From Candidatus Saccharimonadota bacterium (GTDB taxonomy: Bacteria; Patescibacteriota; Saccharimonadia; Saccharimonadales; Saccharimonadaceae), in the NCBI GenBank assembly GCA_016700015.1, contig CP064995.1:270001-302000 (forward strand): a DNA stretch of 32,000 nucleotides, in the 5' to 3' direction. Under the pieces are notes generated by a model. That model was not told where the DNA came from, did no database searches, and saw nothing but the letters and a program-made list of their open reading frames with translations. The position numbers were made by a program, and so were the translations under genes. Position 1 is the stretch's first letter, and every line of letters begins with the position of its first letter. Of this stretch, positions 5,610 through 25,249 are shown piece after piece.

Positions 5610-5903
5610 ATGAGCACGATTACTAGCGACGATGTGCGCCACTTGGCGCAGCTCTCAAACTTGCAGCTTAGTGACGAAGAAGTTGCGGACTTGCAGGTCG
5701 ATCTTGGCAATATTTTGAACTACATTAACCAACTGAGTCAGCTCGACACAACAGGGGTTGAACCGACCTACCAGGTGACTGGGCTTGAAAATGTATGGCG
5801 TGAAGACAAAGTCGCCCAAGGTAACGTGCCACGCGAGCAGTTACTTGCACTCGCTCCTGACCAGCAAGATGGCAGTGTGAAAGTTCCGCAGGTGCTTTCA
5901 TGA
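5610..5903 (+). CDS. gatC: Asp/Glu-tRNA amidotransferase subunit C
   Basis: 97 aa. VRHLAQLSNLQLSDEE...L..IL.Y...L is typical GatC. It overlaps the gatA start (ATGA). Confidence 0.9.
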   Translation: MSTITSDDVRHLAQLSNLQLSDEEVADLQVDLGNILNYINQLSQLDTTGVEPTYQVTGLENVWREDKVAQGNVPREQLLALAPDQQDGSVKVPQVLS

Positions 5904-7306
5904 GCATCGCCGCTATCGTACAGCGTGTTAAAGCCGGCCAATCATCGGCTCGGGCTGAAGTTGAAGCGGCGTTGGCACGCGCGAAAGAAAATAGTGATTA
6001 CCATGCGCTACTCGCGCTTACCGAAAAACGCGCCCTTGAACGAGCCGATGAAATTGATGCAGCACTACAGGCTGGCAAACATGCGGGCAAACTCGCTGGC
6101 GTACCATTTGTCGTCAAAGACAACTACTTAGCCTTCGGCGCGCCAACAACTGCAGCCAGCAAAATCCTCGAAAACTTTATGAGTCCCGTGCAGGCAACTG
6201 TTGTTGAAAAGCTAGAGGCTGAAGGGGCGATTTGTATTGGCAAATCTAATCTTGATGCTTTCGCTCACGGCGGCAGCACTGAAAATTCCGCGTATGGTGT
6301 CACAAAAAATGCAGTCGACATGAGTAAAGTGGCTGGTGGTAGTAGCGGCGGTTCGGCAGTTGTAACAGCGCTCAATATTGTACCGTTTGCACTTGGCAGC
6401 GATACGGGGGGCAGTATTCGACAGCCAGCTAGTTTTAATGGAATATATGGCATGAAGCCAACCTATGGTATGAGCAGCCGCTACGGTGTGGTGGCGATGG
6501 CGAGCAGTACGGACGTTATGGGATGCTTTACGACATGTGCCGAAGATGCTGCATTGGTGCTGAGTATCATGGCGGGACGTGACGACAAAGATATGACGAC
6601 GCTGCCTGACTATTTTTTACCAATAACTAATGTACCATCCCGACTAAAAATTGGCGTTGTGAAAGAAACCATGGGCGACGATGTCGACGAAGAAGTCCGA
6701 CAAGTTACCACAGACTATATTAGTCGTCTCAAAGCAGCTGGTCACGAAGTCGAAGAAGTCAGTATGCCGCTCGCTCCTATGGCGCTCGCTATGTATTACA
6801 TCATCGTGCCGGCTGAAGTGTGCAGTAACTTGGCGCGCTACGACGGCGTGCGCTACGGTCGACGTGCAGAAGGCGTAAAAACACTTGCCGAATTGTATGG
6901 GCGCTCACGCGACGAAGGCTTTGTTACCGAGAACAAGCGCCGCATTATGATCGGAAGTTACGTGCTCAGTAGCGGCTACTTCGATGCCTATTACTTGCAG
7001 GCGCAAAAAGCCCGCACACTGCTCATCGAGTCGTTCAATGAACTATTTAAAACATATGATTTTCTTATTACGCCTACAGCGCCTACACCAGCTTTTGGTA
7101 TTGGCGAAAATACCAGTGACCCGATAAAAATGTACCTTTCCGACGTGATGACAGTACCAGCCAGCCTAGCTGGCATCCCGGCTCTGAGCGTTCCGGCTGG
7201 AGTTAGTAAAGACGGGCTTCCGATCGGCGTACAACTAATCGCACCCATGAAAGCCGACGCCGCACTTCTGGCACTAGCCGCTAGCATGGAGGAAATTCAT
7301 GGATAA
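5900..7306 (+). CDS. gatA: Asp/Glu-tRNA amidotransferase subunit A
   Basis: 468 aa with the amidase signature GGSSGGSAVVTA...GSDTGGSIRQPA. Confidence 0.95.
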   Translation: MSIAAIVQRVKAGQSSARAEVEAALARAKENSDYHALLALTEKRALERADEIDAALQAGKHAGKLAGVPFVVKDNYLAFGAPTTAASKILENFMSPVQATVVEKLEAEGAICIGKSNLDAFAHGGSTENSAYGVTKNAVDMSKVAGGSSGGSAVVTALNIVPFALGSDTGGSIRQPASFNGIYGMKPTYGMSSRYGVVAMASSTDVMGCFTTCAEDAALVLSIMAGRDDKDMTTLPDYFLPITNVPSRLKIGVVKETMGDDVDEEVRQVTTDYISRLKAAGHEVEEVSMPLAPMALAMYYIIVPAEVCSNLARYDGVRYGRRAEGVKTLAELYGRSRDEGFVTENKRRIMIGSYVLSSGYFDAYYLQAQKARTLLIESFNELFKTYDFLITPTAPTPAFGIGENTSDPIKMYLSDVMTVPASLAGIPALSVPAGVSKDGLPIGVQLIAPMKADAALLALAASMEEIHG

Positions 7307-11700: not shown

Positions 11701-14700
11701 ATGGAGAGTAAAACAGGGAAAGCAAACGGCAGCAGTTCTTCGCTCATACCGAGTGATTTTGTTCATTTACACAACCATACACACCATTCACTGCTCGATG
11801 GCCTCACAAAGATTCCAGCACTCGTAGAGAAAGTCAAAGAATACGGCATGACCGCAACTGCTGTCACCGACCACGGTACTATGAGCGGCATTTTGGAATT
11901 TTATAAGGCGGCAGTTGATGGCGAAATCAAGCCAATCCTCGGCATTGAGGCCTATATTGCGGCACGTGGACGCACCGACCGTGATCCGGCAAAAGATAAG
12001 GCACGGTATCACCTAACACTACTTGCTCAGAACGACGAAGGCTATCGCAACTTGATGCAGCTAACGACACTCGCGAATCTCGAGGGTATGTACTACAAGC
12101 CCCGCATGGATCATGAAATTCTTGAGCGGTATTCGGAAGGCGTCGTGGTGCTCAGTGGATGCGCTAGTGGAGAGATCGGCGAGAATTTAAAAACCGATAA
12201 TTATGAAGAGGCAAAGCGTATAGCCCAGTGGTATAAGAGTGTATTTAACGATCGCTATTACCTGGAGCTCCAAGACCATGGGCACCCCGATGCTCCGTAC
12301 ACGTGGCCGGTGCAAACAAAAATAAATGAAGGCTTGATGCGTCTTAGCGAAGAGCTCGACATCCCCATGGTTGTTACGTGTGATGGCCATTATTTAACGC
12401 ACGACGATCAAGAAGCGCACGAGATTTTACTGTGCGTCGGCACTGGTTCATACCTGAGTGATGACAAGCGCATGAGTTTGAAAGAGTTTGAACTACACGT
12501 CACCGATCCGCGTGATATTATTGCGCGCTGGGGGACGAGTCACCCCGATGCAATCATGAATACCAAGAAAATTGCCGATAGCTGCAAGGTTAATATTGAG
12601 CTAGGTAAAATCCTCATTCCAAAGTTTCCGGTGCCCGAAGGTGAAACCGAGGAATCGTATCTTGACAGGCTGGTGTATACGGGGCTTGCGGTACGTTACT
12701 ACGACAAGTCTCCCGAAGAAGCAGCTGCCATGTCGATAGCAGCTGTTAAAAAACTGCTATCAGCAGAAATAAATGAGCGGGTTGAAATGGAGTTTGAAGT
12801 CGTCAACCGCATGGGCTACAATGGCTATTTCCTCATCGTGCAGGACTTTATAAACTGGGGCAAAAGTCAAGGAATCATTTTTGGTCCTGGGCGCGGCTCG
12901 GCAGCAGGTAGTATTATCGCTTACGCCGTCAACATCACCGACCTTGACCCACTGAAATACGACCTACTTTTCGAACGCTTCCTCAATCCAGACCGAATTA
13001 GTATGCCCGACATCGATATTGATATCCAAGATACGCGTCGTGATGAAGTGATTCAGTATTGTGCCGACAAGTATGGTGACGCGCGAGTGGCCAATATCGT
13101 GACATTTGGTAAAATGGCGGCCCGCGCGGCAGTGCGCGACGTGGCCCGCGTGCTCGAAGTGCCTTACGCTGAGGCTGACCGGTTGAGCAAAATGATTCCG
13201 CCACCAGTGCAGGGCCGGCATATTCCACTAAGCAAGAGCGTCCAGGATGACAAGGATTTGAAGCATGAGTACGAAACCAACCCTACGGCTAAGGAGGTGT
13301 TTGACTACGCGATTCGACTCGAGGGAACAATCCGCAGCCACGGAGTACATGCAGCTGGAGTGGTGATCGCTCCCGATGACATAGTGAAGTATGTGCCGCT
13401 CGAAATGGCCCAAAAAGGTGTGGTCGCGACGCAGTATCCCATGGGTCCTGTCGAAGAGCTAGGCCTACTAAAAATGGACTTTCTGGGCCTTAGTAACCTG
13501 ACGATCATCAAAAATACGCTGCGCATCATCAAAAAGGTCTATGGTGAGACGATTGAACTAAGTAAAATTCCGCTCGACGACACTGCGACGTACGAGTTGT
13601 TTCAGCGTGGCGATACGACTGGCGTGTTCCAGCTTGAATCAGCTGGTATGAAGCGCTATCTGCGTGAGCTAAAGCCGAGTGTGTTCGACGATATTATCGC
13701 TATGGTGGCACTCTATCGTCCCGGCCCAATGCAGTTTATCGATAGCTTTATTAAGCGCAAGCATGGTGAAGAAAAGATCAGCTACCTCGACCCAGGGCTT
13801 GAGAGCTCACTCAAAAACACCTACGGTATTTTGGTATACCAGGAACAATTCATGCAGATTAGCAAAGAATGGTGCGGGTTTACGGGCGGTCAGGCTGATA
13901 CGCTGCGTAAAGCTGTCGGCAAAAAGAAAATGGATCTCATGCTCAAAATTCGCCCCGACTTTGTGCAAGGCGCCATAGCCCATGGCAACGCTAGCAAAGA
14001 AGTCGCTGAAACATTTTGGGACCAGCTGGTGGAGTTTGCGAACTACTGTTTCAACAAAGCCCATGCGGCTTGCTATGGCCTGATAGCCTACTGGACGGCG
14101 TATTTAAAGGCGCACTACCCCGACGCGTTTATGGCGGCGCTAATGACGAGTGACCAAGACGATATTGATCGGCTAGCCATCGAGATTATCGAATGTAAAC
14201 ACATGGGGCTGAAGGTGCTCAACCCCGACGTCAATCAGTCATATGTAGAGTTTGCGGTCGTACCTGGCCAGCAGCAAATTCGATTCGGAATGGCAGCGGT
14301 CAAGGGAGTGGGTGTGGCGGCAGTCGAAGAAATCATTCGCGCTCGTGAGGAAGCACCATTTGCCAGTGTCGAAGATTTTGCGAAGCGAGTGAGCACGAGC
14401 AAGGTCAATAAAAAAGCTTGGGAAGCGCTCATTAAATCTGGTGCGTTTGACACGCTTGGTGATCGCAGCGACCTACTATTCAACCTGGAAGACATACTGG
14501 CATTTGCCAGCAAAATGCAAAAGGAAGCCCTGAGCGGCCAGATGGATATGTTTGGCAGTTTGGGCGGCGGTCAATCGCTCATGCCTTCAATCGAGCTGAA
14601 AAAGGCACCAGTGAAATATACCGACAAAGAGCAGCTTATGTGGGAACGAGAGTTGCTCGGGCTGTATATCAGCGCGCACCCACTCGATAACTATGATGCA

Positions 14701-15387
14701 TTTTTTGAGGAGCAAACTATCCCACTTCATAGCGTTAGTCCTGATATTGACGGCCAAGTTGTGACAATAGGTGGGCTGGTGACGAGCATCCGTAGTATTG
14801 TCACAAAAAGTGGCAGTAAGATGGCATTCTTACAGCTGGAAGACAAGACGAGCGAAGCCGAGGTGATTGTATTTCCGAAATTATATGAGCAGCTGGGTGA
14901 TAATCTGCGGCAGGATGTAGTGCTAAAAGTAAGTGGCAAGGTAAGTGCCCGCGACCGTGACGGCAATGTTGGGAGTGAGGCGAAAATGATTGCCGATGAG
15001 ATTAGTATCGTGACCGACAAAGAACTCAACGATTACGAAAGCCATGGCCGCAAAATGGTAGCCCCAGTCGGTAAGATAAAGGTCGTAGGCTATCGGCGTA
15101 AGGCGGCGAAGCCTGGGCAGTTGCATGCGAAAATGCCAGAGCCAGTCGAGCCGCAAAAGTTAGAGCTAAGAACAGTTTACGTGCATATTCCTGACCCAAA
15201 TAATCATGATGCACTGCTCGCTCTTAAGCGAGCGTGCAGCGCTAATCCTGGCCAGTCTGACATTATTATGGTGCTGGGCCCCGACAAAGCTTCCGCTATC
15301 CGGCTGCCATTCCGGGTTGACCTCGAGGGAACGCTGCTGCAGACGCTCACTACACTTCTGGGTGAGGGAAGTGTAGTGATTAAGTGA
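11701..15387 (+). CDS. dnaE: DNA polymerase III alpha subunit
   Basis: 1228 aa. N-terminal PHP domain (FVHLHNHTHHSLLDG), the pol III alpha core (GPGRGSAAGS, PDIDIDI) and an OB fold. Confidence 0.95.
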   Translation: MESKTGKANGSSSSLIPSDFVHLHNHTHHSLLDGLTKIPALVEKVKEYGMTATAVTDHGTMSGILEFYKAAVDGEIKPILGIEAYIAARGRTDRDPAKDKARYHLTLLAQNDEGYRNLMQLTTLANLEGMYYKPRMDHEILERYSEGVVVLSGCASGEIGENLKTDNYEEAKRIAQWYKSVFNDRYYLELQDHGHPDAPYTWPVQTKINEGLMRLSEELDIPMVVTCDGHYLTHDDQEAHEILLCVGTGSYLSDDKRMSLKEFELHVTDPRDIIARWGTSHPDAIMNTKKIADSCKVNIELGKILIPKFPVPEGETEESYLDRLVYTGLAVRYYDKSPEEAAAMSIAAVKKLLSAEINERVEMEFEVVNRMGYNGYFLIVQDFINWGKSQGIIFGPGRGSAAGSIIAYAVNITDLDPLKYDLLFERFLNPDRISMPDIDIDIQDTRRDEVIQYCADKYGDARVANIVTFGKMAARAAVRDVARVLEVPYAEADRLSKMIPPPVQGRHIPLSKSVQDDKDLKHEYETNPTAKEVFDYAIRLEGTIRSHGVHAAGVVIAPDDIVKYVPLEMAQKGVVATQYPMGPVEELGLLKMDFLGLSNLTIIKNTLRIIKKVYGETIELSKIPLDDTATYELFQRGDTTGVFQLESAGMKRYLRELKPSVFDDIIAMVALYRPGPMQFIDSFIKRKHGEEKISYLDPGLESSLKNTYGILVYQEQFMQISKEWCGFTGGQADTLRKAVGKKKMDLMLKIRPDFVQGAIAHGNASKEVAETFWDQLVEFANYCFNKAHAACYGLIAYWTAYLKAHYPDAFMAALMTSDQDDIDRLAIEIIECKHMGLKVLNPDVNQSYVEFAVVPGQQQIRFGMAAVKGVGVAAVEEIIRAREEAPFASVEDFAKRVSTSKVNKKAWEALIKSGAFDTLGDRSDLLFNLEDILAFASKMQKEALSGQMDMFGSLGGGQSLMPSIELKKAPVKYTDKEQLMWERELLGLYISAHPLDNYDAFFEEQTIPLHSVSPDIDGQVVTIGGLVTSIRSIVTKSGSKMAFLQLEDKTSEAEVIVFPKLYEQLGDNLRQDVVLKVSGKVSARDRDGNVGSEAKMIADEISIVTDKELNDYESHGRKMVAPVGKIKVVGYRRKAAKPGQLHAKMPEPVEPQKLELRTVYVHIPDPNNHDALLALKRACSANPGQSDIIMVLGPDKASAIRLPFRVDLEGTLLQTLTTLLGEGSVVIK

Positions 15388-15396
15388 TCACGAACA

Positions 15397-15435
15397 TAGT
15401 GTATACTTGACACTAAGCTAGCTGTCGCGTATACT
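15397..15435 (+). promoter_or_regulatory. Consensus promoter with an operator-like palindrome (cassette copy 1)
   Basis: TTGACA 15407-15412, a 17-nt spacer, then TATACT 15430-15435. The inverted repeat TAGTGT (15397-15402) N7 ACACTA (15410-15415) overlaps the -35. AAGGAGG SD at 15444-15450. Confidence 0.6.
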
Positions 15436-15454
15436 TGCGGGACAAGGAGGTTAT

Positions 15455-16057
15455 ATGGAACGACCAAAAGTAGCAAAGCATGAGACGCAGCGAGTAACCC
15501 CAGAGATTACCTCACTATATAGTGGTTGCATTTCTCTGGCTGACACACTGCTTGAGCTAAAAGACCCGAAGGCAGCGAGGACATTCCAAGAAGTGCTGGT
15601 GCCTCGTAGGCCGCAAGAAGTTCTTGAACGGCTACAGGCGATTAGGGCAGGCGAGTTACTCGCCGGACTTGATGATGAAATTGATATCACACCAATGATC
15701 GACGACGATCTTGATATGTTTGGTGTGTCAAAGCGCGATGCTATCCTTCAGCGTGTTGGTATTGTTGCATGGAATTGGGACAGCGGTATGTTGGATGATG
15801 CTGATAAGATACGAAAGATTGATATAGAATTTCACTATGTCCATCCGGTAGCCGAAGACGGTGTGACCGAGACGATCAGCCTGCATGTGTGGTGTGGTGA
15901 AGTCACACTGATGCGTGGCAGTTTTGTTAGGAAGTACGGCGAAGATGAGTTCGAAGACAACGAGGAACACGTCCTAGTCGGCCAAACCGACCAGGATATT
16001 ATTGATTTTGTTGAGCTTGCTATGTGGGCGGTTGGCGATAACCCAACGGCTGCCTAA
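15455..16057 (+). CDS. Hypothetical strongly acidic protein, paralog A
   Basis: 200 aa. It has its own promoter and SD, no TM or signal peptide, and no family I recognise. It is collinear with the next ORF. Confidence 0.75.
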   Translation: MERPKVAKHETQRVTPEITSLYSGCISLADTLLELKDPKAARTFQEVLVPRRPQEVLERLQAIRAGELLAGLDDEIDITPMIDDDLDMFGVSKRDAILQRVGIVAWNWDSGMLDDADKIRKIDIEFHYVHPVAEDGVTETISLHVWCGEVTLMRGSFVRKYGEDEFEDNEEHVLVGQTDQDIIDFVELAMWAVGDNPTAA

Positions 16058-16086
16058 GTTGAAAGGCGGTGGGTAAATAATAAACA

Positions 16087-16125
16087 TAGTGTATAATTGA
16101 CACTAATAAATATACAGGGTATACT
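16087..16125 (+). promoter_or_regulatory. Consensus promoter with an operator-like palindrome (cassette copy 2)
   Basis: TTGACA 16097-16102, a 17-nt spacer, then TATACT 16120-16125. TAGTGT 16087-16092 N7 ACACTA 16100-16105. AAAGGAG SD at 16133-16139. Positions 16083-16106 match 15393-15416 at 23 of 24 nt. Confidence 0.6.
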
Positions 16126-16144
16126 GACCACCAAAGGAGTATAT

Positions 16145-17065
16145 ATGGAAAGACCACATGCCAAAGTTGAGAAAATAGATGATGAGCTGGATCACGAGCT
16201 CACTCAGGTGCATGCAGACTTCATTGCTCTTGCTGATGAGCTACTAGCGCATAAGAAGGTGGATGACCCATTTAGCTGTATAGGCATCGTAGTGCAGCAT
16301 AGTCCCAAACGTGTACTTGAGCGCCTGATCGCCACAAGGATAGGTAGCCTGGTACGTGCAGATGATACACAATTGGCAATTCCCGAGGCTGGAGAGCATT
16401 ATCCACAGCTCGATCTGCGCAAGCAAAACGGGAAGCTTGTAGCTGTGTCGGTTCTGGTGTGGGGGTGGGATCATGAGAAGACCCGATTTGTTGATGATAG
16501 TCCTGCCTACCCGAACGGATATAGGGACTACCCTGGTGAGATTGATAAAACGAGGCAGCTCGATATCAACTTTTCATACGATATCGGAGGTGTCGATGTG
16601 ACAGAAAGTGTGAGTCTCTATGGCTCTACCTGCTCACCCAGCAATGTGGAGGCGATGAGCCACATATGGGCATCGGTATATGCAGAGACTGGCTATGAAG
16701 GGCATGGTAGTGAAGCCATAGACGAGCCGAGTGATGCTGATTTATATGAATTTTTGGAGCTCGTAGCGAGTATCGTAGGTGATATACCGGAATCTTTCGG
16801 GGAGATGAAAGCAAGACAGCTCGCCGAGCTTCGTCAGGAATTTGAAGGGACGGAATATTACGATACAATCCTACGGGCCATCACAGTGATACGGCCTACT
16901 CAAGCCCTGTATGAAATTACCAAGCGAGAGCGTGATGGCATAGGCACAATCGCGCGAGCGCTCAAATCAGGCGATAAGCAGTTGCAACAGCTGGCATACG
17001 AACGGCTGGTTGAGATTATCGAATGGTTCGAGGAATCTCGAGCTCGGGCTACACTTGGTGGGTAA
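16145..17065 (+). CDS. Hypothetical acidic protein, paralog B (with an extra C-terminal tail)
   Basis: 306 aa from ATG 16145 (MERPHAK...). The ORF-track start at 16097 is the TTG of the -35 hexamer and is therefore an artefact. Confidence 0.75.
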   Translation: MERPHAKVEKIDDELDHELTQVHADFIALADELLAHKKVDDPFSCIGIVVQHSPKRVLERLIATRIGSLVRADDTQLAIPEAGEHYPQLDLRKQNGKLVAVSVLVWGWDHEKTRFVDDSPAYPNGYRDYPGEIDKTRQLDINFSYDIGGVDVTESVSLYGSTCSPSNVEAMSHIWASVYAETGYEGHGSEAIDEPSDADLYEFLELVASIVGDIPESFGEMKARQLAELRQEFEGTEYYDTILRAITVIRPTQALYEITKRERDGIGTIARALKSGDKQLQQLAYERLVEIIEWFEESRARATLGG

Positions 17066-17564
17066 GCTGATAGAGGGCAATTCCTGCGGCGACACTCACA
17101 TTGAATGACTCTTTTTGGCCCTGCATCGGAATTTCGATGACATCGTGGCACTGTGCTAGTAAGCTGGGAGTGATGCCATGTACTTCTTCGCCAATCAGCA
17201 GCGCAATCTTTTCGGGTGGTTGATAGTCACGAAGCATAATGGAGTTTTCGGATTGCTCGAGTGCCACGATCGTATATCCCGCCAGTTCTGGGCACGCTAG
17301 GTCTAGTGTGTCGTAGTGAACAAAGGGTACCAGCGTCTCAGCACCCAGTGCGGTTTTGTGAATCTGACGTGTTAGTTTCTCTACAATATGCGGCAGCCGT
17401 CCATCTAAAGGGTACGACCCTTGAGATTGAATGGGTAGCATGGGGTAGGGGGTATAGCCGCTAAGGATTATTTTTTTTACCCCAAACCCCTCGCATGTAC
17501 GAAAAATCGATCCGACATTGTGGGTGCTACGAATATTATGAACAATGACGACAATCTCTGGCAT
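17049..17564 (-). CDS. SpoU/TrmH-family RNA 2'-O-methyltransferase
   Basis: 171 aa. HNIRSTHNVGSIFRTCEGFG and C-terminal IPM.G...S.NVSVAAGIALY are SPOUT motifs. The 3' end overlaps paralog B by 17 nt. Confidence 0.85.
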   Translation of the reverse strand: MPEIVVIVHNIRSTHNVGSIFRTCEGFGVKKIILSGYTPYPMLPIQSQGSYPLDGRLPHIVEKLTRQIHKTALGAETLVPFVHYDTLDLACPELAGYTIVALEQSENSIMLRDYQPPEKIALLIGEEVHGITPSLLAQCHDVIEIPMQGQKESFNVSVAAGIALYQLTHQV

Positions 17565-17617: not shown

Positions 17618-19240
17618 ATGAACGAAGAAGAAGTCCAACAGCGTCGTCGCGAGCAAGACGAAAATGCCACTAGGCAGCGTGCGGCCATACTTGGGCTGCA
17701 ATACATTGATACGCGTGAGTTGGAGCAAAAACTAGCACTCGCAAGCGACGTATTGCCGATTGAAGTGATGCACCGCGATCGGATCGTGCCGCTGGTAAAG
17801 GGCGATGAGCAGACTTTGTGGCAGTTCGGTGTCACTGCGCAGACACCGCAGTCGACAATGCAAAGAATGACGAGTGAGTATAACCAGGCTGGTAAGGGCA
17901 TTCAGTTTATGCTGATAAGTTTGAGTGGTTATAAAGCCCTCATGAATCGCTACGATCCACCCAAACAAGTAGTGTATCAAGACATCGCCATCGCCAAAGA
18001 TGGTGACAGCGACACAATAAGCCAGGTGAGTCAGACGCTGAATTCGGTGAGCAGTGAAGAGATATTTGATTTTATTATTGACCAGGCAGACAAGCTTGGA
18101 GCTAGCGACATTCACATCGAAAACGAGCGCGACAACATCCGCGTGCGTATGCGTGTCGATGGTGCCCTGCACCCAGTAGCTCACCTTGATCGTGATCGCT
18201 ACCGAGTCATTATGGGCGAACTTGCTAGCCGTGCTGGTATTAGCAGTGCGGCGGTAGAAAGCCAGTCGGGCCATATGCAGCGCGAGATTACGCGTGACGG
18301 CAGCACCCACCTATTGAATCTACGTGTCGAAACAGTCCCTACTATGTACGGGCAAGATGCAGTACTGCGCCTGTTTAATTTCGACGAAAGCCTGCTCAAT
18401 CTTGATTTACTAGGTATTCCCGATAAACAACGCAAAGAGATCAATGAAATCATTAGCCATCCGCGCGGATTGGTGCTAATGGTTGGTCCAACCGGCAGCG
18501 GTAAATCCACAACACTCTATAGTATGCTCAATGCGCTCAATACACCTGACCGCAAGCTGATTACACTCGAAGACCCCATCGAATACGGCCTGACGGGCAT
18601 TTCACAGATACCTATCAACACCACTGGCGGGCAGAGCTTTGCTGATGGGTTGCGTAGTGTACTACGCCTTGACCCCGACGTGGTGATGGTTGGCGAGATC
18701 CGTGATACCGACACCGCACGAACGGCGATCCAGGCATCGATTACTGGTCACCTGGTACTAAGCAGCTTCCACGCCAACAGCACTAGCGCGGCCTTTAGTC
18801 GTATGATCGATATGATTGGTGTGAACCCGATATTTAGTAGTGCTGTGCGCATGGTAATTGCACAGCGTTTAGTGCGACGGCTTGTCGATGAAACCAAGCA
18901 GGAGTACGAACCCGACCAGGCAACACGCGACTACGTGAAGCGTATACTCGACGGTATACCTGACGATATCGATCATCCTAATCTTGACAGCTTCAAGCTA
19001 TGGAAACCTGTTGCCAGTGACGACGCGCCATTTGGCTACAAGGGTCGCGTGGTGATTATGGAACAAATGATTGTGACTGAAGAAATTCAGAAGTTTATTC
19101 GCGGTGACATAGACGATGTGCACCCGGAGGCGATCGAAAAAGTCGCTAAGAGTGAAGGTATGCTCACGCTCGAACAAGTAGGGGTGCTAGCGGCACTTCG
19201 TGGCGAAACGACACTCGACGAAGTCGCGAGAGTTATTTAA
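17618..19240 (+). CDS. pilB: Type II/IV secretion / type IV pilus assembly ATPase (GspE/PilB family)
   Basis: 540 aa. Walker A GPTGSGKSTT, Asp box, Walker B (DPDVVMVGEIRD), His box (TGHLVLSSFHAN) and an N-terminal GSPII_E_N-like region. Confidence 0.9.
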   Translation: MNEEEVQQRRREQDENATRQRAAILGLQYIDTRELEQKLALASDVLPIEVMHRDRIVPLVKGDEQTLWQFGVTAQTPQSTMQRMTSEYNQAGKGIQFMLISLSGYKALMNRYDPPKQVVYQDIAIAKDGDSDTISQVSQTLNSVSSEEIFDFIIDQADKLGASDIHIENERDNIRVRMRVDGALHPVAHLDRDRYRVIMGELASRAGISSAAVESQSGHMQREITRDGSTHLLNLRVETVPTMYGQDAVLRLFNFDESLLNLDLLGIPDKQRKEINEIISHPRGLVLMVGPTGSGKSTTLYSMLNALNTPDRKLITLEDPIEYGLTGISQIPINTTGGQSFADGLRSVLRLDPDVVMVGEIRDTDTARTAIQASITGHLVLSSFHANSTSAAFSRMIDMIGVNPIFSSAVRMVIAQRLVRRLVDETKQEYEPDQATRDYVKRILDGIPDDIDHPNLDSFKLWKPVASDDAPFGYKGRVVIMEQMIVTEEIQKFIRGDIDDVHPEAIEKVAKSEGMLTLEQVGVLAALRGETTLDEVARVI

Positions 19241-19313
19241 TTCCGCTTGACAAATATAGTAAAATTTGATACAAATATACAAGATAGCAATCTCCCGACA
19301 TTAAGGAGTAAAG

Positions 19314-19703
19314 ATGATTGCGTTGTTCATTGTGCTGGCATCAGTTGTCGGCCTCGTTGCGTACACCGCCATCGGCGCCTACGCCATGGGCTGGGTCAAG
19401 CCCTACGCCAGGCTGATGTGCGATGACATCGGATGTCGTGGTGGTTATGGTTGCATGCACCATTACATCCCGCCCTGGACCGTTGTCGTCTGGTGGGTCA
19501 TGGTGCCCGCCGTTATCGCCCAGCTCGTGGCAACCGATCGATGGCAGCGCTTCCGTCGCCTCGCTCGCGAGGAGCGCGCCGAGGCTCGATTGGAAGATGC
19601 GCGCCAGGCGCGGGACCGCACCGAGCGGCTCATCGCCCAGCTCGACGCCAGTCGCGCCGAGGCTCAGGCGTCCCTGCGGCGCATCCAGGACGTCGCCGCC
19701 TAG
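19314..19703 (+). CDS. Hypothetical membrane protein on a high-GC islet
   Basis: 129 aa. Two TM segments flank a Cys-rich loop (CDDIGCRGGYGC), followed by an R/E/A-rich coiled coil. A TAAGGAG SD lies 6 nt upstream. The third codon position is strongly G/C in this frame. Confidence 0.65.
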   Translation: MIALFIVLASVVGLVAYTAIGAYAMGWVKPYARLMCDDIGCRGGYGCMHHYIPPWTVVVWWVMVPAVIAQLVATDRWQRFRRLAREERAEARLEDARQARDRTERLIAQLDASRAEAQASLRRIQDVAA

Positions 19704-19711
19704 CACCACAA

Positions 19712-19763
19712 GGCCCCCGACTCGATACGAACAGTATCGGGCCAGGGGGCCTGCTTTATTTTA
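19712..19763 (+). terminator. GC-rich hairpin terminator
   Basis: GGCCCCC...CGATAC-gaaca-GTATCG...GGGGGCC followed by TGCTTTATTTT. Confidence 0.5.
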
Positions 19764-19768
19764 CTTAA

Positions 19769-20902
19769 CTAGCAGATAACATTAGCAATTGCCGGTACCA
19801 GTCGCTCATCAAATACACTTGGGATTACTTCATCTGCAGTAGGGTGCTCGACAAGGCTGGCGATTGCCTCGGCGGCGGCTAGCTTGTGCTGATCGGTGAT
19901 TTGCTTCACGCCATTGTCGAGTGCACCGCGGAAGATACCGGGAAAAGCGATGGCATTATTTACTTGGTTAGGAAAGTCGCTCCGACCAGTAGCTACCACT
20001 GCCGCGCCGGCGGCCTTGGCGACACTTGGCATGATTTCAGGGGTGGGGTTTGCGAGTGCAAAGATAATTGGTTGGTCGGCCATCTTTTGCACCATTTCTT
20101 CGGTCAGCAGGCCTGGCTTACTTACCCCGATGAAGATATCCGCCCCAGTGATTGCATCGTCGAGTGAGCCGCTGTGGCTGCGGTCGATAAAATCGAGCAG
20201 CGCTTTCTTCTCGTCATTAAGATCAGTACGACTATCACCAACAATGCCTCTGCTGTCGACGGCGATGATGTTTTTAGCTCCATAGAGATTGAGAAGCTTC
20301 ATGATTGCCGTACCTGCAGCACCTGCACCGATTGTGACAATCTTGCAATCTGCGAGAGTTTTGCCGGTAACTTCCATGGCGTTGATGAGCCCTGCGAGTA
20401 CTACGACCGCCGTGCCGTGCTGATCGTCGTGAAATACTGGCACACCACACACGGCCTTTAGCCGCTCTTCCACCTCAAAGCATTTTGGTGCGGCGATATC
20501 TTCGAGGTTGATGGCGCCAAAGCTTGGGGCAATTGCCTTTATCGTCGCCACGATTTCGTCGGGCGTGTGCACGTCGAGGATGATCGGTACACTGTCAATG
20601 TCGGCAAATGTCTTGAATAGCATAGCTTTGCCCTCCATCACGGGCATACTGGCTCTCGGGCCCACGTCCCCAAGGCCTAGCACTGCCGAGCCGTCACTAA
20701 TAACCGCAACCAGATTGTTGGTCCAGGTGTAGGTAGCTAGCTGCGATGGATCGGCCGCGATTGCACGGCTCACTTCGGCCACGCCTGGCGTATAGTAGCT
20801 ACTGAGTTTCGCTCGGTCAAGCGGGCTTTCGTCGCGGAGTCTGGTGGTGATTTTGCCTTTATATTTGGCATGTAGTTCGAGGGCGAGTTGATTATAGTCC
20901 AT
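19769..20902 (-). CDS. NAD(P)-dependent malic enzyme (short form)
   Basis: 377 aa. LSSYYTPGVAEV, VAVISDGSAVLGLGDVGP, FHDDQHGTA and the Rossmann motif GAGAAG. Confidence 0.9.
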   Translation of the reverse strand: MDYNQLALELHAKYKGKITTRLRDESPLDRAKLSSYYTPGVAEVSRAIAADPSQLATYTWTNNLVAVISDGSAVLGLGDVGPRASMPVMEGKAMLFKTFADIDSVPIILDVHTPDEIVATIKAIAPSFGAINLEDIAAPKCFEVEERLKAVCGVPVFHDDQHGTAVVVLAGLINAMEVTGKTLADCKIVTIGAGAAGTAIMKLLNLYGAKNIIAVDSRGIVGDSRTDLNDEKKALLDFIDRSHSGSLDDAITGADIFIGVSKPGLLTEEMVQKMADQPIIFALANPTPEIMPSVAKAAGAAVVATGRSDFPNQVNNAIAFPGIFRGALDNGVKQITDQHKLAAAEAIASLVEHPTADEVIPSVFDERLVPAIANVIC

Positions 20903-21903: not shown

Positions 21904-22749
21904 CTACTTCTTTCCGGCCGGCTTCGGCGCCGCCGGCTTGGGTGCCGCTGGCTTGGGTGCGGCCGGCTTACCGACGGTGCCCGGGTTCGCGGCAGAGCCC
22001 GACCCGCCAAACGGCGTGGCCGGCTTGACGCCGTTTGCCTTGGCGTAGGTCGACGCCGACTTGGCGGAATCGACCTTGATGACGCCGCCCTTGCCAATGG
22101 TGGCAGTGGCATCATTCGTGGCCTTCGGCATCGGCATCGTGCGGTAGCCTGCCTTGGGGCTCTTCTGTGCCGTGGCGAAGTCGACGGGCGCCGTGGACGT
22201 CCCGTAGTACACCTTCGTCACGGTGTAGCTTTTGTACGCCGGCTGGCGCAGCCACTGGCCGCCGCCCACCTGCGTATACGGAACGTAGGCCCGTCCGTAG
22301 GAATCGATGCCGACCAGGCTACTGAGAGCCATGTACTGTAGTGGCGACAGGTCACCGCTCAGCATACCATACGTGAGCATGGCGTTGCCGCTCCGATAGC
22401 CCATGACACGGGCCATCATCCAGTAATATAGGAAGTTGGCGTCTTCGTCCTTCTTGACGAAGTGCTGTCCACCACCGACGTCGATGACGCAGACCGTGTC
22501 GTCGCCGGTGGCGTCGCTATACGTCTTGACCTCGTCGCCGTTCTTGGCGGCGTACTCGGCCAGCTGGGTAACCTCAGCCGGTTTCAACTCAGTGTAGCAT
22601 TCGGTCGCATCCTGCTGGTCCAGCGACCAGCCGGGCTGCGACGACGTGCTGTTGTTGCCGCTACACGCGGCGGTGCCGGCCATCAGGCCGAGCGCGGCGA
22701 GCACAGTGATGAAAACGCGGGGGAATCGGAACCTGGACAATGTGACCAC
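21904..22749 (-). CDS. High-GC putative lipoprotein with a C-terminal (PAAPK)3 repeat
   Basis: 281 aa. Signal peptide plus lipobox LMAGTAAC. GC3 is strongly biased in this frame. The start is GTG 22749, or TTG 22740 which has better SD spacing. No family recognised. Confidence 0.75.
   Translation of the reverse strand: MVTLSRFRFPRVFITVLAALGLMAGTAACSGNNSTSSQPGWSLDQQDATECYTELKPAEVTQLAEYAAKNGDEVKTYSDATGDDTVCVIDVGGGQHFVKKDEDANFLYYWMMARVMGYRSGNAMLTYGMLSGDLSPLQYMALSSLVGIDSYGRAYVPYTQVGGGQWLRQPAYKSYTVTKVYYGTSTAPVDFATAQKSPKAGYRTMPMPKATNDATATIGKGGVIKVDSAKSASTYAKANGVKPATPFGGSGSAANPGTVGKPAAPKPAAPKPAAPKPAGKK
21920..21969. repeat. 15-bp tandem repeat, about 3.3 copies
   Basis: GGCTTSGGYGCSGCY units start at 21920, 21935, 21950 and 21965 (the last partial). 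They encode PAAPKPAAPKPAAPKPA on the minus strand. Confidence 0.8.
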
Positions 22750-22810
22750 CCTCTCTGGGGAGTAGTGCGAGGAGCGGGGGAAGGTGCGGCTGCACTATCC
22801 CTTCCTCTAC

Positions 22811-22839
22811 ATTATAGCATAAATACCATAAAAATGCAA
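22811..22839 (-). promoter_or_regulatory. AT-rich sigma70-type promoter for the lipoprotein gene
   Basis: On the minus strand: TTGCAT (22839-22834), a 17-nt spacer, then TATAAT (22816-22811). The leader is about 55 nt. Confidence 0.5.
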
Positions 22840-22859
22840 TATACTCAATAAAATAAATT

Positions 22860-22884
22860 GGGGTAGCGGGTGCTCCGCTACCCC
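22860..22884 (-). terminator. Rho-independent terminator of the 90-aa ORF
   Basis: Perfect 10-bp stem GGGGTAGCGG / CCGCTACCCC with a 5-nt loop. On the minus strand it is followed by AATTTATTTTATT. Confidence 0.65.
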
Positions 22885-22892
22885 GTATGCGA

Positions 22893-23165
22893 CTACGCGT
22901 CCTGAATGCCAGCCGGCACAAATGCACTGTCCTGGACACCTGGCAATTGGTTCTCCTCAACAATCAAGTTGAGGGTAGTCAGGAGAAGCTTATCGGAGTC
23001 GGCCAGACCGTACCCTGTGTAAATTGCTTCACCGAGCCGCTGTTTCATGTTGTCCACGAATGAGTCGAGCGTACCAGACATCCAGATACCCTGGACGCTG
23101 AGACGAGCGGGCGCTTCCCAAGCGTCGCTCATGGCTTCGACGACCAAAATCACTAGCTTGCTCAT
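22893..23165 (-). CDS. Hypothetical 90-aa protein (weak HicB/UPF0150-like impression only)
   Basis: I prefer ATG 23165 (MSKLVILVVEAMSDAWEA...), which has a GAGGAG SD 4 nt upstream. The ORF-track N-terminal extension to 23327 runs into the IS element. Confidence 0.55.
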   Translation of the reverse strand: MSKLVILVVEAMSDAWEAPARLSVQGIWMSGTLDSFVDNMKQRLGEAIYTGYGLADSDKLLLTTLNLIVEENQLPGVQDSAFVPAGIQDA

Positions 23166-23200
23166 GATGCTCCTCGCGGGTAGGCCTCCATTCCGTTTTG

Positions 23201-24225
23201 AATCAGGACACCCGATGCTAGACAATACACACCATGAAGAAAGCATCAAAGGTAACGGATGCCGAGCGAAGCGAGATAGACATCCTCCATACCAAAGGCT
23301 ATTCTGCACGGGCCATCGCCCGTGCATTGGGGCGCAGTCCCAATACCATTGCGACCGAGCTGCAACGCAATAGCCTCAAGGATGGGAGATACGTCGCTAC
23401 CCACGCCAAACACAAAGCCTATGTACGGCGTAAGTATGCTCGCTACCAAGGCAAGAAGATTCAAGACAATGACGAGCTTCGCTCGTTCATCGTCCTGAAA
23501 CTCTCTGAGCACTGGAATCCAGACGAGATAGCCGGCTATCTCAGAGCCAACTCAGCGCTTGGTATCTATGCCAGCAAGACGGCCATCTATGAATGGTTGC
23601 GCAGTGCCTGGGGACAACAGTACTGCCCGTTGCTGTACTCGAAGCGTTACCGCAAGAAACCACGCAGACAACTCAGGGCGGGTCACGTCATGATTCCCGA
23701 CCGCACTTCCGTCACAGAGCGACCGCTGGTCGCTCTAGACCGAGCCGAGACCGGTCACTGTGAATACGACAGCGTCGTGAGCAGCAAGCACCCAGGGAGC
23801 GCCTCTGCACTCGCTGTCCTTACCGAACGGTCTTCACGACTGGTACGAGCGAAGCTCGTACCTAACCTGAAGCCAGAGCCGTACGCACACACCATCTCGC
23901 GACTCGCGAGTGGGCTGGGGGTTCGCAGTATGACGACCGATAACGGCATCGAGAACAGGCGCCACGCACTCGTCACTAATAAGACGGGCGCGCCCGTCTT
24001 CTTTACTGACCCCTATTCCTCTTGGCAAAAAGGCAGTGTCGAGAATGCCAACAAGATGCTGCGTCGCTACTTCCCGAAGGGCACCGACTTTGCTACAGTG
24101 ACACAAACGGATGTTGACAATGCGCTAGCACGCATTAACAACAAGCCGAGGAAGATCCTCGGCTACAAAAGTTCATTACAAGTTGCAAAAGAGAAAGGAT
24201 TAATTCTAGAGGGAGTGTCCTGATT
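23201..24225 (+). mobile_element. Compact IS30-family insertion sequence (about 1025 bp)
   Basis: Terminal inverted repeats AATCAGGACAC at 23201-23211 and its reverse complement at 24215-24225, extending imperfectly inward. They enclose one IS30-type transposase ORF. I found no clear target-site duplication. Confidence 0.7.
23234..24223 (+). CDS. IS30-family DDE transposase
   Basis: 329 aa. N-terminal HTH (GYSARAIARALGRSPNTIATELQRN). DDE candidates are GHCEYDSV, TTDNGIEN and SVENANKMLRRYFPKG. The stop codon lies inside the right IR. Confidence 0.9.
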   Translation: MKKASKVTDAERSEIDILHTKGYSARAIARALGRSPNTIATELQRNSLKDGRYVATHAKHKAYVRRKYARYQGKKIQDNDELRSFIVLKLSEHWNPDEIAGYLRANSALGIYASKTAIYEWLRSAWGQQYCPLLYSKRYRKKPRRQLRAGHVMIPDRTSVTERPLVALDRAETGHCEYDSVVSSKHPGSASALAVLTERSSRLVRAKLVPNLKPEPYAHTISRLASGLGVRSMTTDNGIENRRHALVTNKTGAPVFFTDPYSSWQKGSVENANKMLRRYFPKGTDFATVTQTDVDNALARINNKPRKILGYKSSLQVAKEKGLILEGVS

Positions 24226-24304: not shown

Positions 24305-25249
24305 ATGATACTTGGCATAGACGAAGTTGGGCGTGGGCCGTGGGCGGGACCTTTGGTGGTTGGGGCGGTGGTATTGGGTGGCGCTGAGATAGACGGGCTG
24401 GCCGACAGCAAGAAGCTCACGAAAAAGCGGCGCTATGAGTTGAATATACTCATACGTGAACAGGCTGCTGTAGTGGCGCTGGGGTGGGTGAGTGCCATAG
24501 AGCTCGATGAAATTGGTATGAGTGAAGCGCTTCGGCTTGCTACCAGGCGGGCGGTTGAGCAAATTAAAACACCGTATCACGAAATCATTATCGACGGTAC
24601 AGTAAACCTACTGGAAGGCACGGGGAAGGCAGCCTATGTGACAACCCTGCCAAAGGCAGATGCCCTCGTGCCGAGTGTGTCTGCGGCAAGCATTGTGGCC
24701 AAGGTGGCACGTGACACCTATATGGCCGAGCAGGATGCGATTTATCCGGGCTATGGCTTTGCGAAGAATGCTGGCTATGGCGTGGCGGCGCACCGACAGG
24801 CTATCGAAAAACTTGGCGTGACACCGCTTCACCGACTCAGCTTTGCACCGCTTATGCACTATCGCCAAACTACGGCCGATACGCAGGGTATCGTACCTGC
24901 TCGTATAACTAAAACAACCAAAAGTATTGGCAACGCCAGCGAAACGGTCGTCTGCAACTACCTAGAAAGTCATAACTACGAGATTGTTGCGCGTAACTGG
25001 CGCACCAAATGGTGTGAAATCGATATTGTCGCCCATAAACACGGCACATTATATTTCGTAGAGGTGAAACATCGCAAAAATGACAAAGCAGGGGACGGAC
25101 TGGCAGCGATTACGCCCAAAAAACTAAAGCAAATGACATTTGCTGCCAAACTGTATGCCGTGGCACATAGTGGCTCCAATCTGCAGCTGGCCGTCGCCAG
25201 TACGGCCGGTGAGCCACCGCAACTAGTTGAGTTTTTGAAACTTACATAG
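24305..25249 (+). CDS. rnhB: Ribonuclease HII fused to a YraN/UPF0102-family endonuclease domain
   Basis: N-terminal GIDEVGRGPWAGPLVVGAV...DSKKL...GYGF is RNase HII. C-terminal SETVVCNYLESHNYEIVARNWRTKWCEIDIVA...LYFVEVKHR is YraN-like. It is one uninterrupted ORF. The ORF track starts at 24287, but ATG 24305 has a -10 (TGgTATACAct) just upstream. Confidence 0.85.
   Translation: MILGIDEVGRGPWAGPLVVGAVVLGGAEIDGLADSKKLTKKRRYELNILIREQAAVVALGWVSAIELDEIGMSEALRLATRRAVEQIKTPYHEIIIDGTVNLLEGTGKAAYVTTLPKADALVPSVSAASIVAKVARDTYMAEQDAIYPGYGFAKNAGYGVAAHRQAIEKLGVTPLHRLSFAPLMHYRQTTADTQGIVPARITKTTKSIGNASETVVCNYLESHNYEIVARNWRTKWCEIDIVAHKHGTLYFVEVKHRKNDKAGDGLAAITPKKLKQMTFAAKLYAVAHSGSNLQLAVASTAGEPPQLVEFLKLT

What the first reader, a model, noticed from the sequence alone, without database searches (positions are those of the whole stretch)
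15393..17065. Tandem pair of very acidic paralogous ORFans, each independently promoted
ORFs 15455-16057 (200 aa) and 16145-17065 (306 aa) both start with MERP. By eye they share collinear motifs: (S/A)LAD.LL; P..VLERL.A.R.G; V.W.WD; D.(I/T)R..DI.F.Y; VTE.(I/V)SL; F(V/L)EL....VGD.P. The second has an extra C-terminal tail of about 90 aa. By my count paralog A has about 41 D/E against about 20 K/R. Neither has a signal peptide, a TM segment or a motif I can assign to a known family. Each gene carries its own TTGACA-17-TATACT promoter and a strong SD, while most neighbouring housekeeping genes appear leaderless. Diverged tandem paralogs that are highly expressed, cytoplasmic and strongly acidic fit families such as DNA mimics, anti-restriction proteins, immunity proteins or host-interaction factors. 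That functional reading is speculation. This pair is my best candidate for undescribed biology in the native-composition part of the window.
Basis: partly seen in the sequence, partly recalled or inferred. Interest (0 to 1): 0.75.

Follow-up and report, generated by a model that had tools for sequence, protein, structure and literature searches.

The report
Saccharibacteria-specific unknown protein, duplicated in tandem
Two neighbouring genes in a Saccharibacteria genome encode diverged copies of an uncharacterised acidic protein found almost only in this phylum; one copy has lost the family's most conserved motif, and the function of both is still unknown.

Summary
ORF A (15455-16057, 200 aa) and ORF B (16145-17065, 306 aa) are true paralogues (BLASTP E=1e-18, 29% identity). 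Each follows a 74-nt repeat carrying TTGACA-17-TATACT, AAGGAG and ATGGAA. They are the most acidic proteins in the window (pI 4.4 and 4.7).

They are not strict ORFans. B belongs to a family with at least 176 clusters at 50% identity, almost all in Saccharibacteria. Its signature is a Y-A-E-T-G-Y-E-G-H loop. In many species it sits at a fixed site: dnaE | gene | convergent spoU | pilB.

No Pfam, NCBIfam, PHROG, PADLOC or PDB-sequence match exists. Confident AlphaFold models (pLDDT 91 and 82) have no Foldseek neighbour in PDB or BFVD.

The tandem pair occurs only in this lineage. A has lost the signature loop, a hairpin and the C-terminal helical tail, yet it is under purifying selection (dN/dS 0.14).

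In about 15 relatives the family gene is divergently paired with a winged-helix plus Nudix-like protein, in several genomic contexts. This suggests a regulated, possibly nucleotide-linked, function.

The DNA-mimic, anti-restriction and immunity readings find no support. The function is unresolved and the interest moderate.

The parts
15393..15454 (+). Upstream control region of A. It holds the conserved block AACATAGTGTATACTTGACACTAA, which contains the inverted repeat AGTGT-N7-ACACT overlapping the -35 TTGACA (15407-15412). It also holds the -10 TATACT (15430-15435) and the Shine-Dalgarno AAGGAGG.
15455..16057 (+). Paralogue A, 200 aa, pI 4.44. It comprises the core domain only. The signature loop is degenerate (YGEDEFEDN instead of YAETGYEGH). 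It lacks the ~21-aa hairpin with the K-x-R-Y motif and lacks the C-terminal helical tail.
   Evidence: dN/dS 0.14 against L007; AF2 pLDDT 82
16083..16144 (+). Upstream control region of B. It carries the same block (AACATAGTGTATAATTGACACTAA), -35 TTGACA at 16097-16102, -10 TATACT at 16120-16125 and the Shine-Dalgarno AAGGAG.
16145..17065 (+). Paralogue B, 306 aa, pI 4.71. It is the canonical family member: core domain 1-217 with WGWD..K.R and YAETGYEGH (residues 179-187), plus a helical C-terminal tail 218-305. It is the syntenic orthologue of the single-copy gene in other Saccharibacteria. Its 3' end overlaps the convergent spoU-like gene by 17 nt.
   Evidence: AF2 pLDDT 90.8; dN/dS 0.20
11701..15387 (+). 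dnaE (DNA polymerase III alpha), the conserved upstream flank of the locus.
17049..17564 (-). SpoU/TrmH-type methyltransferase gene, the conserved convergent downstream flank. It is followed by the pilB/T2SSE ATPase gene at 17618-19240 (+).

Best explanation
B is the resident member of an uncharacterised cytoplasmic acidic alpha+beta protein family centred on Saccharibacteria.

Shown:
- The family has a ~200-aa core and an optional ~90-aa helical tail.
- Its most conserved feature is a surface loop, Y-x-E-x-G-Y-E-G-H. It also has conserved W-G-W-D..K-x-R and R-Q-L-D-I-x-F-x-Y strands.
- The gene occupies a fixed slot between dnaE and a convergent spoU-pilB pair.
- In many relatives it is divergently paired with a winged-helix protein carrying a catalytically degenerate Nudix domain. 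The two share a conserved intergenic element.
- In the window's lineage that neighbour is absent from the locus. Instead there is a second family copy, A, preceded by the same promoter block.
- A keeps the predicted fold and is under purifying selection. It has lost the signature loop residues (G, Y, G, H), the K-x-R hairpin and the tail.

Inferred:
- The family is a small-molecule-binding or enzymatic domain, possibly handling a nucleotide-derived compound.
- In relatives its expression is set by the Nudix-like sensor-regulator.
- In this genome both copies are driven by strong sigma-70 promoters. They are co-regulated through the palindrome AGTGT-N7-ACACT that overlaps each -35.
- A acts as a non-catalytic partner or modulator of B, in the manner of a pseudoenzyme.
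For: Paralogy and shared promoter block. The -35/-10 spacer is only 4 of 13 identical between A and B, while the flanking blocks are 23 of 24 identical. The blocks are therefore conserved by selection rather than by recent duplication.

Family size and signature. A strict pattern YA[ED]xGY[EDS] is present in 106 of 157 long members, and most of the rest vary only at the second position.

Synteny dnaE-gene-spoU-pilB.

The tandem pair occurs only in the window and in L007/L032.

A has lost the motif, hairpin and tail.

Purifying selection: A dN/dS 0.14 and B 0.20, against 0.01-0.05 for four neighbouring genes with usable estimates (pilB's synonymous sites are saturated, so it gives none).

Confident models share one secondary-structure order, alpha, beta, alpha, alpha, five long antiparallel strands, alpha.

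Regulator adjacency occurs in about 15 distinct loci, both in the dnaE/spoU context and in at least four other flank contexts.

Conserved intergenic element GGTAAAA-N4-TYGACTAG.

The Nudix box is degenerate in the adjacent proteins. It is intact in the neighbour of a distant family member.

One protein (P0095) fuses a canonical domain to a second, motif-less domain. This shows the same canonical-plus-degenerate combination arising independently.
Against: There is no functional evidence of any kind. No ligand, activity, expression or interaction data are available.

No structural neighbour was found, so 'ligand-binding or enzyme' rests only on conservation of a polar and aromatic loop and on the gene neighbourhood.

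The regulator is absent from this window and from L004, L007, L008, L010, L012, L029 and L036. The link is therefore borrowed from relatives.

Distant core-only members have unrelated, non-recurring neighbours.

The palindrome could simply be an extended -35 or UP element.

The NJ tree places A with P0063-type orthologues (bootstrap 70) rather than with its own genome's B. In-situ duplication is therefore not certain.
Confidence: 0.4

Rival explanations
1. DNA mimic, anti-restriction or anti-defence proteins. On this reading the acidic surfaces imitate DNA and block host or competitor nucleases, or block host defences against the epibiont.
For: Both proteins are acidic (net -21 and -24), cytoplasmic and predicted to be highly expressed. 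The family evolves faster than its neighbours: 41-56% identity where DnaE and PilB are 66-86% identical. dN/dS is also higher than for the neighbours.
Against: The gene sits at a chromosomal, syntenic site among housekeeping genes in many species. The motif-based scan found no relatives in viral contigs. There is no PADLOC or PHROG hit. Acidity is moderate and is general to the family and the genome. The most conserved element is a Tyr/Glu/His loop, not an acidic array. In relatives the gene is paired with a sensor-type regulator.
Confidence: 0.07
2. Immunity proteins of a polymorphic toxin or effector system, held as a tandem array of diverged immunity paralogues.
For: The genes are tandem, diverged, acidic, small alpha+beta proteins that evolve rapidly.
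Against: No toxin or effector gene is adjacent in any of about 35 loci. The gene is single-copy in nearly all genomes. Its position is fixed next to dnaE and spoU. An invariant polar loop is atypical for immunity proteins.
Confidence: 0.05
3. A replisome or DNA-metabolism accessory factor that works with DnaE. The gene lies directly downstream of dnaE, sometimes 6-14 nt away, in genomes where several Pol III accessory subunits have not been identified.
For: The gene is co-directional and immediately downstream of dnaE in L012 (6-nt gap), L008, L029 and L036. A MutT/Nudix-like neighbour is present in relatives.
Against: The whole block dnaE...pilB...L19...RNase HII is syntenic, so adjacency carries little functional signal. 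Members with 350-360 aa and distant members lie far from dnaE. Other genes are often inserted between dnaE and the family gene. The window copies have their own promoters.
Confidence: 0.1
4. A is a decaying or functionless duplicate, and the pair has no joint function. B alone carries the family's unknown role.
For: A lost the signature loop, the hairpin and the tail. It occurs only in one shallow lineage. It sits on a very long branch.
Against: The ORF is intact in two genomes whose synonymous sites are about 40% diverged. dN/dS is 0.14. The promoter block and Shine-Dalgarno sequence are retained under selection. The AF2 model of the same fold is confident.
Confidence: 0.15

Closest known systems
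Helix-grip (START / Bet v 1 / SRPBCC) ligand-binding domains
   Same: The order of secondary-structure elements in both AF2 models fits: beta, alpha, alpha, a run of antiparallel strands, then a long C-terminal helix. SRPBCC-type chains appear among the weak Foldseek hits: COXG 2ns9_B, Lam4 StART 6bym_B, KshA 4qdc and GxtA 7sze_B. My functional guess is small-molecule binding.
   Different: No hit is significant (E >= 0.4, TM <= 0.25). The strands are about twice as long, at up to 22 residues. There is an extra N-terminal helix and a helical tail. No Pfam SRPBCC family matches even at E <= 10. The resemblance is a lead only.
Triphosphate tunnel metalloenzyme / CYTH fold (for example the vaccinia D1 and Pct1 RNA triphosphatases)
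   Same: Both models recurrently give these as their top but non-significant Foldseek hits in PDB and BFVD. Long antiparallel strands carry conserved Glu, Arg and Lys residues. A nucleotide link is suggested by the Nudix-like neighbour.
   Different: E is 0.05-1.6 and TM about 0.17. The models have five long strands rather than an eight-strand tunnel. There is no ExExK motif and no Pfam CYTH hit.
NrtR-type Nudix-related transcriptional regulators and their divergently transcribed target genes
   Same: In relatives the family gene is divergently paired with a protein that combines a winged helix with a Nudix domain whose catalytic REUxEE box is degenerate, as in NrtR (my knowledge of NrtR). The pair shares a conserved intergenic element.
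   Different: The domain order is reversed, with the wHTH N-terminal. Both domains score below the Pfam thresholds. DNA binding and the effector are untested. The regulator is not present in this window.
Acidic DNA-mimic and anti-restriction proteins (Ocr and ArdA type)
   Same: They are acidic, cytoplasmic and promoter-proximal, and predicted to be highly expressed.
   Different: There is no sequence or fold match. The gene is not on mobile or viral DNA. Its locus is a conserved chromosomal one. Its charge density is much lower than I recall for Ocr and ArdA (from memory, not tested).

Membership tests
Any Pfam / NCBIfam / PHROG / PADLOC family | Profile HMM match at or near the curated threshold | tested here: not met
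   For A and B the best hits are E=0.15 (Phage_TAC_7) and 0.32, well below the cut-offs. NCBIfam, PHROGs and PADLOC give nothing. Scanning 23 family members individually gives no recurrent family.
Any protein of solved structure | Sequence-profile or Foldseek match to a PDB chain | tested here: not met
SRPBCC / helix-grip superfamily | Beta-alpha-alpha-beta(6)-alpha topology wrapping a ligand cavity, with a significant structural superposition | tested here: inconclusive
   The secondary-structure order is compatible. The Foldseek matches are non-significant. The cavity could not be inspected because no coordinates were accessible.
DNA mimic / anti-restriction proteins | Encoded on phage, plasmid or other mobile DNA, typically in early or leading regions | tested here: not met
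   The locus is a syntenic chromosomal one in about 25 Saccharibacteria loci. The motif-based scan of IMG/VR found no relatives. The local base composition is native.
DNA mimic / anti-restriction proteins | Surface array of carboxylates that mimics the DNA backbone, and binding to a DNA-binding enzyme | not testable with these tools
   Only bulk charge is known: A net -21 over 200 aa, B net -24 over 306 aa.
Polymorphic-toxin immunity proteins | Located immediately downstream of a cognate toxin domain gene | tested here: not met
   The upstream neighbour is dnaE, a wHTH-Nudix-like gene or a small ORF. No toxin-like gene appears in any locus.
NrtR-like regulon member (target of a Nudix-related regulator) | Adjacent or divergent Nudix-wHTH regulator, with a conserved operator in the shared promoter region | tested here: inconclusive
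   This feature is met in about 15 related loci. It is not met in this window: tblastn finds no regulator in the 32 kb. Binding is untested.

The most novel reading that the evidence does not exclude
The family is a previously undescribed fold and enzyme class specific to Saccharibacteria and a few other uncultured lineages. Its Y-x-E-x-G-Y-E-G-H loop forms an active site for a nucleotide-derived metabolite, and that metabolite is sensed by the paired wHTH-dead-Nudix regulator. In the Saccharimonas-like lineage of this window the regulator was replaced by a motif-less paralogue, A, which now controls B post-translationally as a pseudoenzyme partner. Both copies are co-regulated through the AGTGT-N7-ACACT operator.
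Probability: 0.12. Interest if true: 0.7.

Novelty: new variant of a known kind. Interest (0 to 1): 0.42.

Why it matters
Saccharibacteria are obligate epibionts with tiny genomes, so a conserved, apparently highly expressed gene of unknown function at a fixed core locus is likely to matter for their biology.

This work defines the family: its signature loop, core and tail architecture, distribution and synteny. It gives confident structural models. It also identifies a recurrent partner, a wHTH protein with a dead Nudix domain, which yields a testable regulatory and metabolic hypothesis.

The window's lineage offers a natural experiment, with a canonical copy next to a motif-less copy under one type of promoter.

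Nothing here yet overturns current understanding. This is one of many uncharacterised CPR protein families.

Tried and rejected
- Pfam, NCBIfam, PHROGs and PADLOC on A and B, and Pfam on 23 family members, gave nothing usable.
- PDB sequence-profile searches with two alignments gave nothing.
- Foldseek of both models against PDB, and of B against BFVD, gave only non-significant hits.
- I tested whether the upstream neighbours in relatives are hidden family copies. These were the 326-aa ORF in L004 and the 95-aa ORF in L001. They are not.
- I tested whether the ~55-aa N-terminal insertion of the 350-aa subtype derives from the small 84-95-aa upstream ORF. It does not.
- I looked for a recurrent neighbour among distant core-only members. 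None was found: the neighbours include DUF192, an IS200-like gene, peptidase M50, a Laminin_G_3 protein and a type I R-M system, with no pattern.
- The viral-contig scan found no relatives.
- Rfam found no RNA family in the window.
- A literature search with Saccharibacteria, dnaE and acidic-protein terms returned nothing relevant.
- The 12-bp hairpin at the 3' end of dnaE shows no compensatory changes in L007 and is absent in L008. It is probably incidental.
- Cluster look-ups for distant members gave no organism names.
Full report
**What is in the window**

The window comes from a Candidatus Saccharibacteria genome. B is 100% identical to NCBI IPM09_01580 and A to IPM09_01575, both on a 1.01-Mb contig. 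ORF A (15455-16057, 200 aa) and ORF B (16145-17065, 306 aa) lie on the + strand. They sit directly after dnaE (11701-15387) and before a convergent SpoU-type methyltransferase gene (17049-17564), which overlaps B by 17 nt. The pilB/T2SSE gene follows at 17618-19240.

**Check of the observation**

- A and B are homologous. BLASTP gives E=1e-18 and 29% identity, collinear over all of A and residues 1-217 of B.
B has 56 against 32, pI 4.71. These are the lowest pI values among 25 window ORFs, although the proteome here is generally acidic.
- No hydrophobic segment approaches TM strength.
- Each gene is preceded by TTGACA-17-TATACT. These are the only two matches of 11 out of 12 positions in 11-20 kb. 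Each also has an AAGGAG Shine-Dalgarno sequence.
- The two upstream regions form a 74-nt direct repeat, 73% identical, with 690-nt spacing. Its first 24 nt are 23 of 24 identical, and that block occurs nowhere else in the window.
- Between -35 and -10 only 4 of 13 positions agree. The repeat is therefore old, and the conserved blocks are held by selection.
- The block contains the inverted repeat AGTGT-N7-ACACT overlapping the -35. A five-way alignment with two related genomes keeps GTGT.TA.T.GACACT.A invariant, while the centre and the first bases of the -35 vary. That pattern fits an operator for a dimeric regulator. This is an inference.
- Several neighbouring genes have a -10-like box only 6-7 nt before the start codon (dnaE's lies 12 nt before it).

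**The family**

B has 27 word-based homologues of 216-384 aa, none with a Pfam domain. A has only itself and an 85%-identical orthologue.

A profile of 29 sequences, searched against 1.8 billion representative proteins, found 176 clusters at E <= 1e-3 and 133 at E <= 1e-10. The members fall into three size classes:
- about 190-225 aa, core only;
- about 300-320 aa, core plus a helical tail, as in B;
- about 350-390 aa, with an extra ~55-aa insertion after the conserved MERP N-terminus.

The signature is Y-A-E-(T/M)-G-Y-(E/D)-G-H. Y179, G183 and Y184 of B are invariant even among members at 20-25% identity. Other conserved motifs are W-G-W-D..K-x-R-Y, P-x-L-D-x-x-K, R-Q-L-D-I-x-F-x-Y and E-S-x-S-L-Y. 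The family as a whole is acidic, with a median pI of 4.68.

A motif-based scan of one genome per GTDB species found 16 loci. Nearly all are labelled Saccharibacteria or Saccharimonadales. A few core-only members sit on contigs labelled Nomurabacteria or Dormiibacterota, or on high-GC contigs. A scan of metagenome contigs added 18 loci. A scan of viral contigs found none.

**No known relatives**

Pfam, NCBIfam, PHROGs and PADLOC give nothing for A or B. They give nothing recurrent for 23 family members either. Profile searches against PDB sequences give nothing.

The AlphaFold2 models are confident:
- B: pLDDT 90.8, pTM 0.86.
- A: pLDDT 82.3, pTM 0.80.

The two models share one order of elements: an N-terminal helix, a short strand, two short helices, five long antiparallel strands of up to 22 residues, and a long helix. 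B then adds a helical bundle at 218-305. The signature loop lies between the fourth and fifth long strands.

**Genomic anatomy across relatives**

In about 25 loci the gene sits in the same slot: dnaE - (0-3 variable genes) - family gene - convergent spoU - pilB - (malic enzyme) - L19 - RNase HII.

The family gene diverges faster than its flanks:

| Locus | Family gene | DnaE | SpoU | PilB |
|---|---|---|---|---|
| L001 | 41% | 69% | 70% | 66% |
| L008 | 54% | 85% | not compared | 86% |

(All values.)

Between the window and its closest relative L007, dN/dS is 0.20 for B and 0.14 for A. Four neighbouring genes give 0.01-0.05; pilB's synonymous sites are too saturated for an estimate. Both A and B have lower synonymous divergence than the four flanking genes downstream of the pair, and somewhat lower than the dnaE 3' end. 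Both are therefore real genes under purifying selection, constrained less tightly than the housekeeping genes around them.

Only the window and L007/L032 carry two family copies. Every other locus has one.

**What A is**

Against the family alignment, A differs in four ways:
- It replaces YAETGYEGH with YGEDEFEDN.
- It lacks the ~21-residue hairpin that carries K-x-R-Y.
- It replaces QLAI.SDG.YYP.LD with an acidic stretch.
- It ends right after the core.

Some single-copy orthologues at the same locus also lack the hairpin but keep the signature and the tail: P0063, P0054, P0061, P0064 and P0073.

In an NJ tree A groups with P0063 (bootstrap 70) rather than with B of its own genome, but A sits on a very long branch. 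Its origin is therefore unresolved. It may be an old in-situ duplication followed by acceleration. It may instead be an acquired orthologue whose promoter region has since come to match B's.

One metagenomic protein, P0095, fuses a canonical domain to a second domain that aligns collinearly with the family (hhalign E=3e-5) but also lacks the signature. The canonical-plus-degenerate combination has thus arisen at least twice.

**A recurrent partner in relatives**

In about 15 distinct loci a ~215-225-aa gene lies divergently upstream of the family gene. These loci are L001, L009, L013-L017, L026-L028, L030, L034, L038-L041 and L045.

The product has an N-terminal winged helix, with sub-threshold hits to DUF7347, HTH_45 and Sso10a. 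It has a C-terminal Nudix-like domain scoring 17-19.5 bits against a cut-off of 21.1. In the adjacent proteins the Nudix box glutamates are lost (R-[ILV]-x-x-K-T). In the homologue lying 2.4 kb from a distant family member (L023) the box is intact (RELMEETGL).

The pair is kept both inside the dnaE/spoU slot and in at least four unrelated flank contexts. This is the strongest functional signal available. The shared intergenic region carries a conserved element, GGTAAAA-N4-T(C/T)GACTAG. Its 3' half resembles the T(T/C)GACACTAAG of the window's block; a common origin is an inference.

The regulator family is large, with more than 3000 hits. It is absent from this window and from the loci of L004, L007, L008, L010, L012, L029 and L036. 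In the window, A occupies the slot where relatives carry the regulator.

**Interpretation**

Shown: this is a real, conserved, fast-evolving, cytoplasmic acidic protein family with no known relatives. It has a lineage-specific second copy that has lost the signature yet remains under selection. Both copies share conserved promoter blocks.

Inferred, with a confidence of about 0.4: B is a ligand-binding or enzymatic protein, possibly acting on a nucleotide-derived compound. In relatives its expression is controlled by a sensor-regulator with a dead Nudix domain. In this lineage both copies are strongly expressed and co-regulated, and A serves as a non-catalytic partner of B.

The reasons are the core chromosomal synteny, the absence from viral DNA, the absence of defence-family hits, the absence of any toxin neighbour, and only moderate acidity. 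A replisome-accessory role rests only on adjacency within a block that is syntenic as a whole.

**Verdict**

Novelty is that of an undescribed protein family, possibly with a new fold, rather than a demonstrated new mechanism. Interest is moderate.

Noticed in passing
window 15455-15466 and 16145-16156; the first 12 nt of the family gene in L001, L004 and L007-L017: The first 12 nt of the ORF are almost invariant at the DNA level. ATGGAACGACCA appears in 11 of 15 gene starts, and the other four differ at one or two bases. These orthologues are only ~40% identical as proteins. CGA makes up only 14% of Arg codons and CCA 32% of Pro codons in the window's genes. This suggests an RNA- or DNA-level constraint at the start of the gene, beyond the MERP peptide.
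   Followed up: partly
L001 4966-5622 (-), L009 4016-4669 (-), L013 5096-5752 (-), L016, L017, L026-L028, L030, L034, L038-L041, L045: A ~218-aa protein with a winged helix and a Nudix-like domain (degenerate Nudix box) lies divergently adjacent to the family gene in many relatives. The conserved element GGTAAAA-N4-TYGACTAG lies in the shared intergenic region. The gene is absent from this window.
   Followed up: yes
L001 5703-5990, L027 3726-3980, L015 about 5700-5990: A small conserved ORF of 84-95 aa, ending in a QF(V/L)WDPMS motif, lies between the regulator and the family gene in some relatives. It has no family match and is unrelated to the N-terminal insertion of the 350-aa subtype.
   Followed up: partly
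window 15347-15379: A perfect 12-bp inverted repeat with a 9-nt loop lies inside the last codons of dnaE, just before its stop codon. It is 11 of 12 paired in L007 without compensatory changes, and absent in L008. It is probably incidental.
   Followed up: partly
C-termini of P0013, P0021, P0051, P0061, P0063, P0075, P0077, P0081: A subset of the long family members ends in a short conserved P-W-R-D motif at the extreme C-terminus, reminiscent of a docking peptide. B in the window lacks it.
   Followed up: no
slot between dnaE and the family gene: L004 4915-5895, L001 4627-5990, window 15455-16057: The slot between dnaE and the family gene is variable. Different genomes carry there a 326-aa protein with a weak HD/PDEase hit, a regulator plus small ORFs, nothing, or paralogue A.
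   Followed up: partly
window 19000-20000 and 22000-24000: GC content rises to 0.55-0.60, against about 0.48-0.51 around the finding. The 129-aa ORF at 19314-19703 is overlapped by several long alternative-frame ORFs. I did not examine this region.
   Followed up: no
window 121, 19769-20902 (-), 25223-27754 (-), 28956: Several genes have a TATAAT-like hexamer 6-7 nt upstream of the start codon and no Shine-Dalgarno sequence. This is consistent with frequent leaderless transcripts in this genome.
   Followed up: partly
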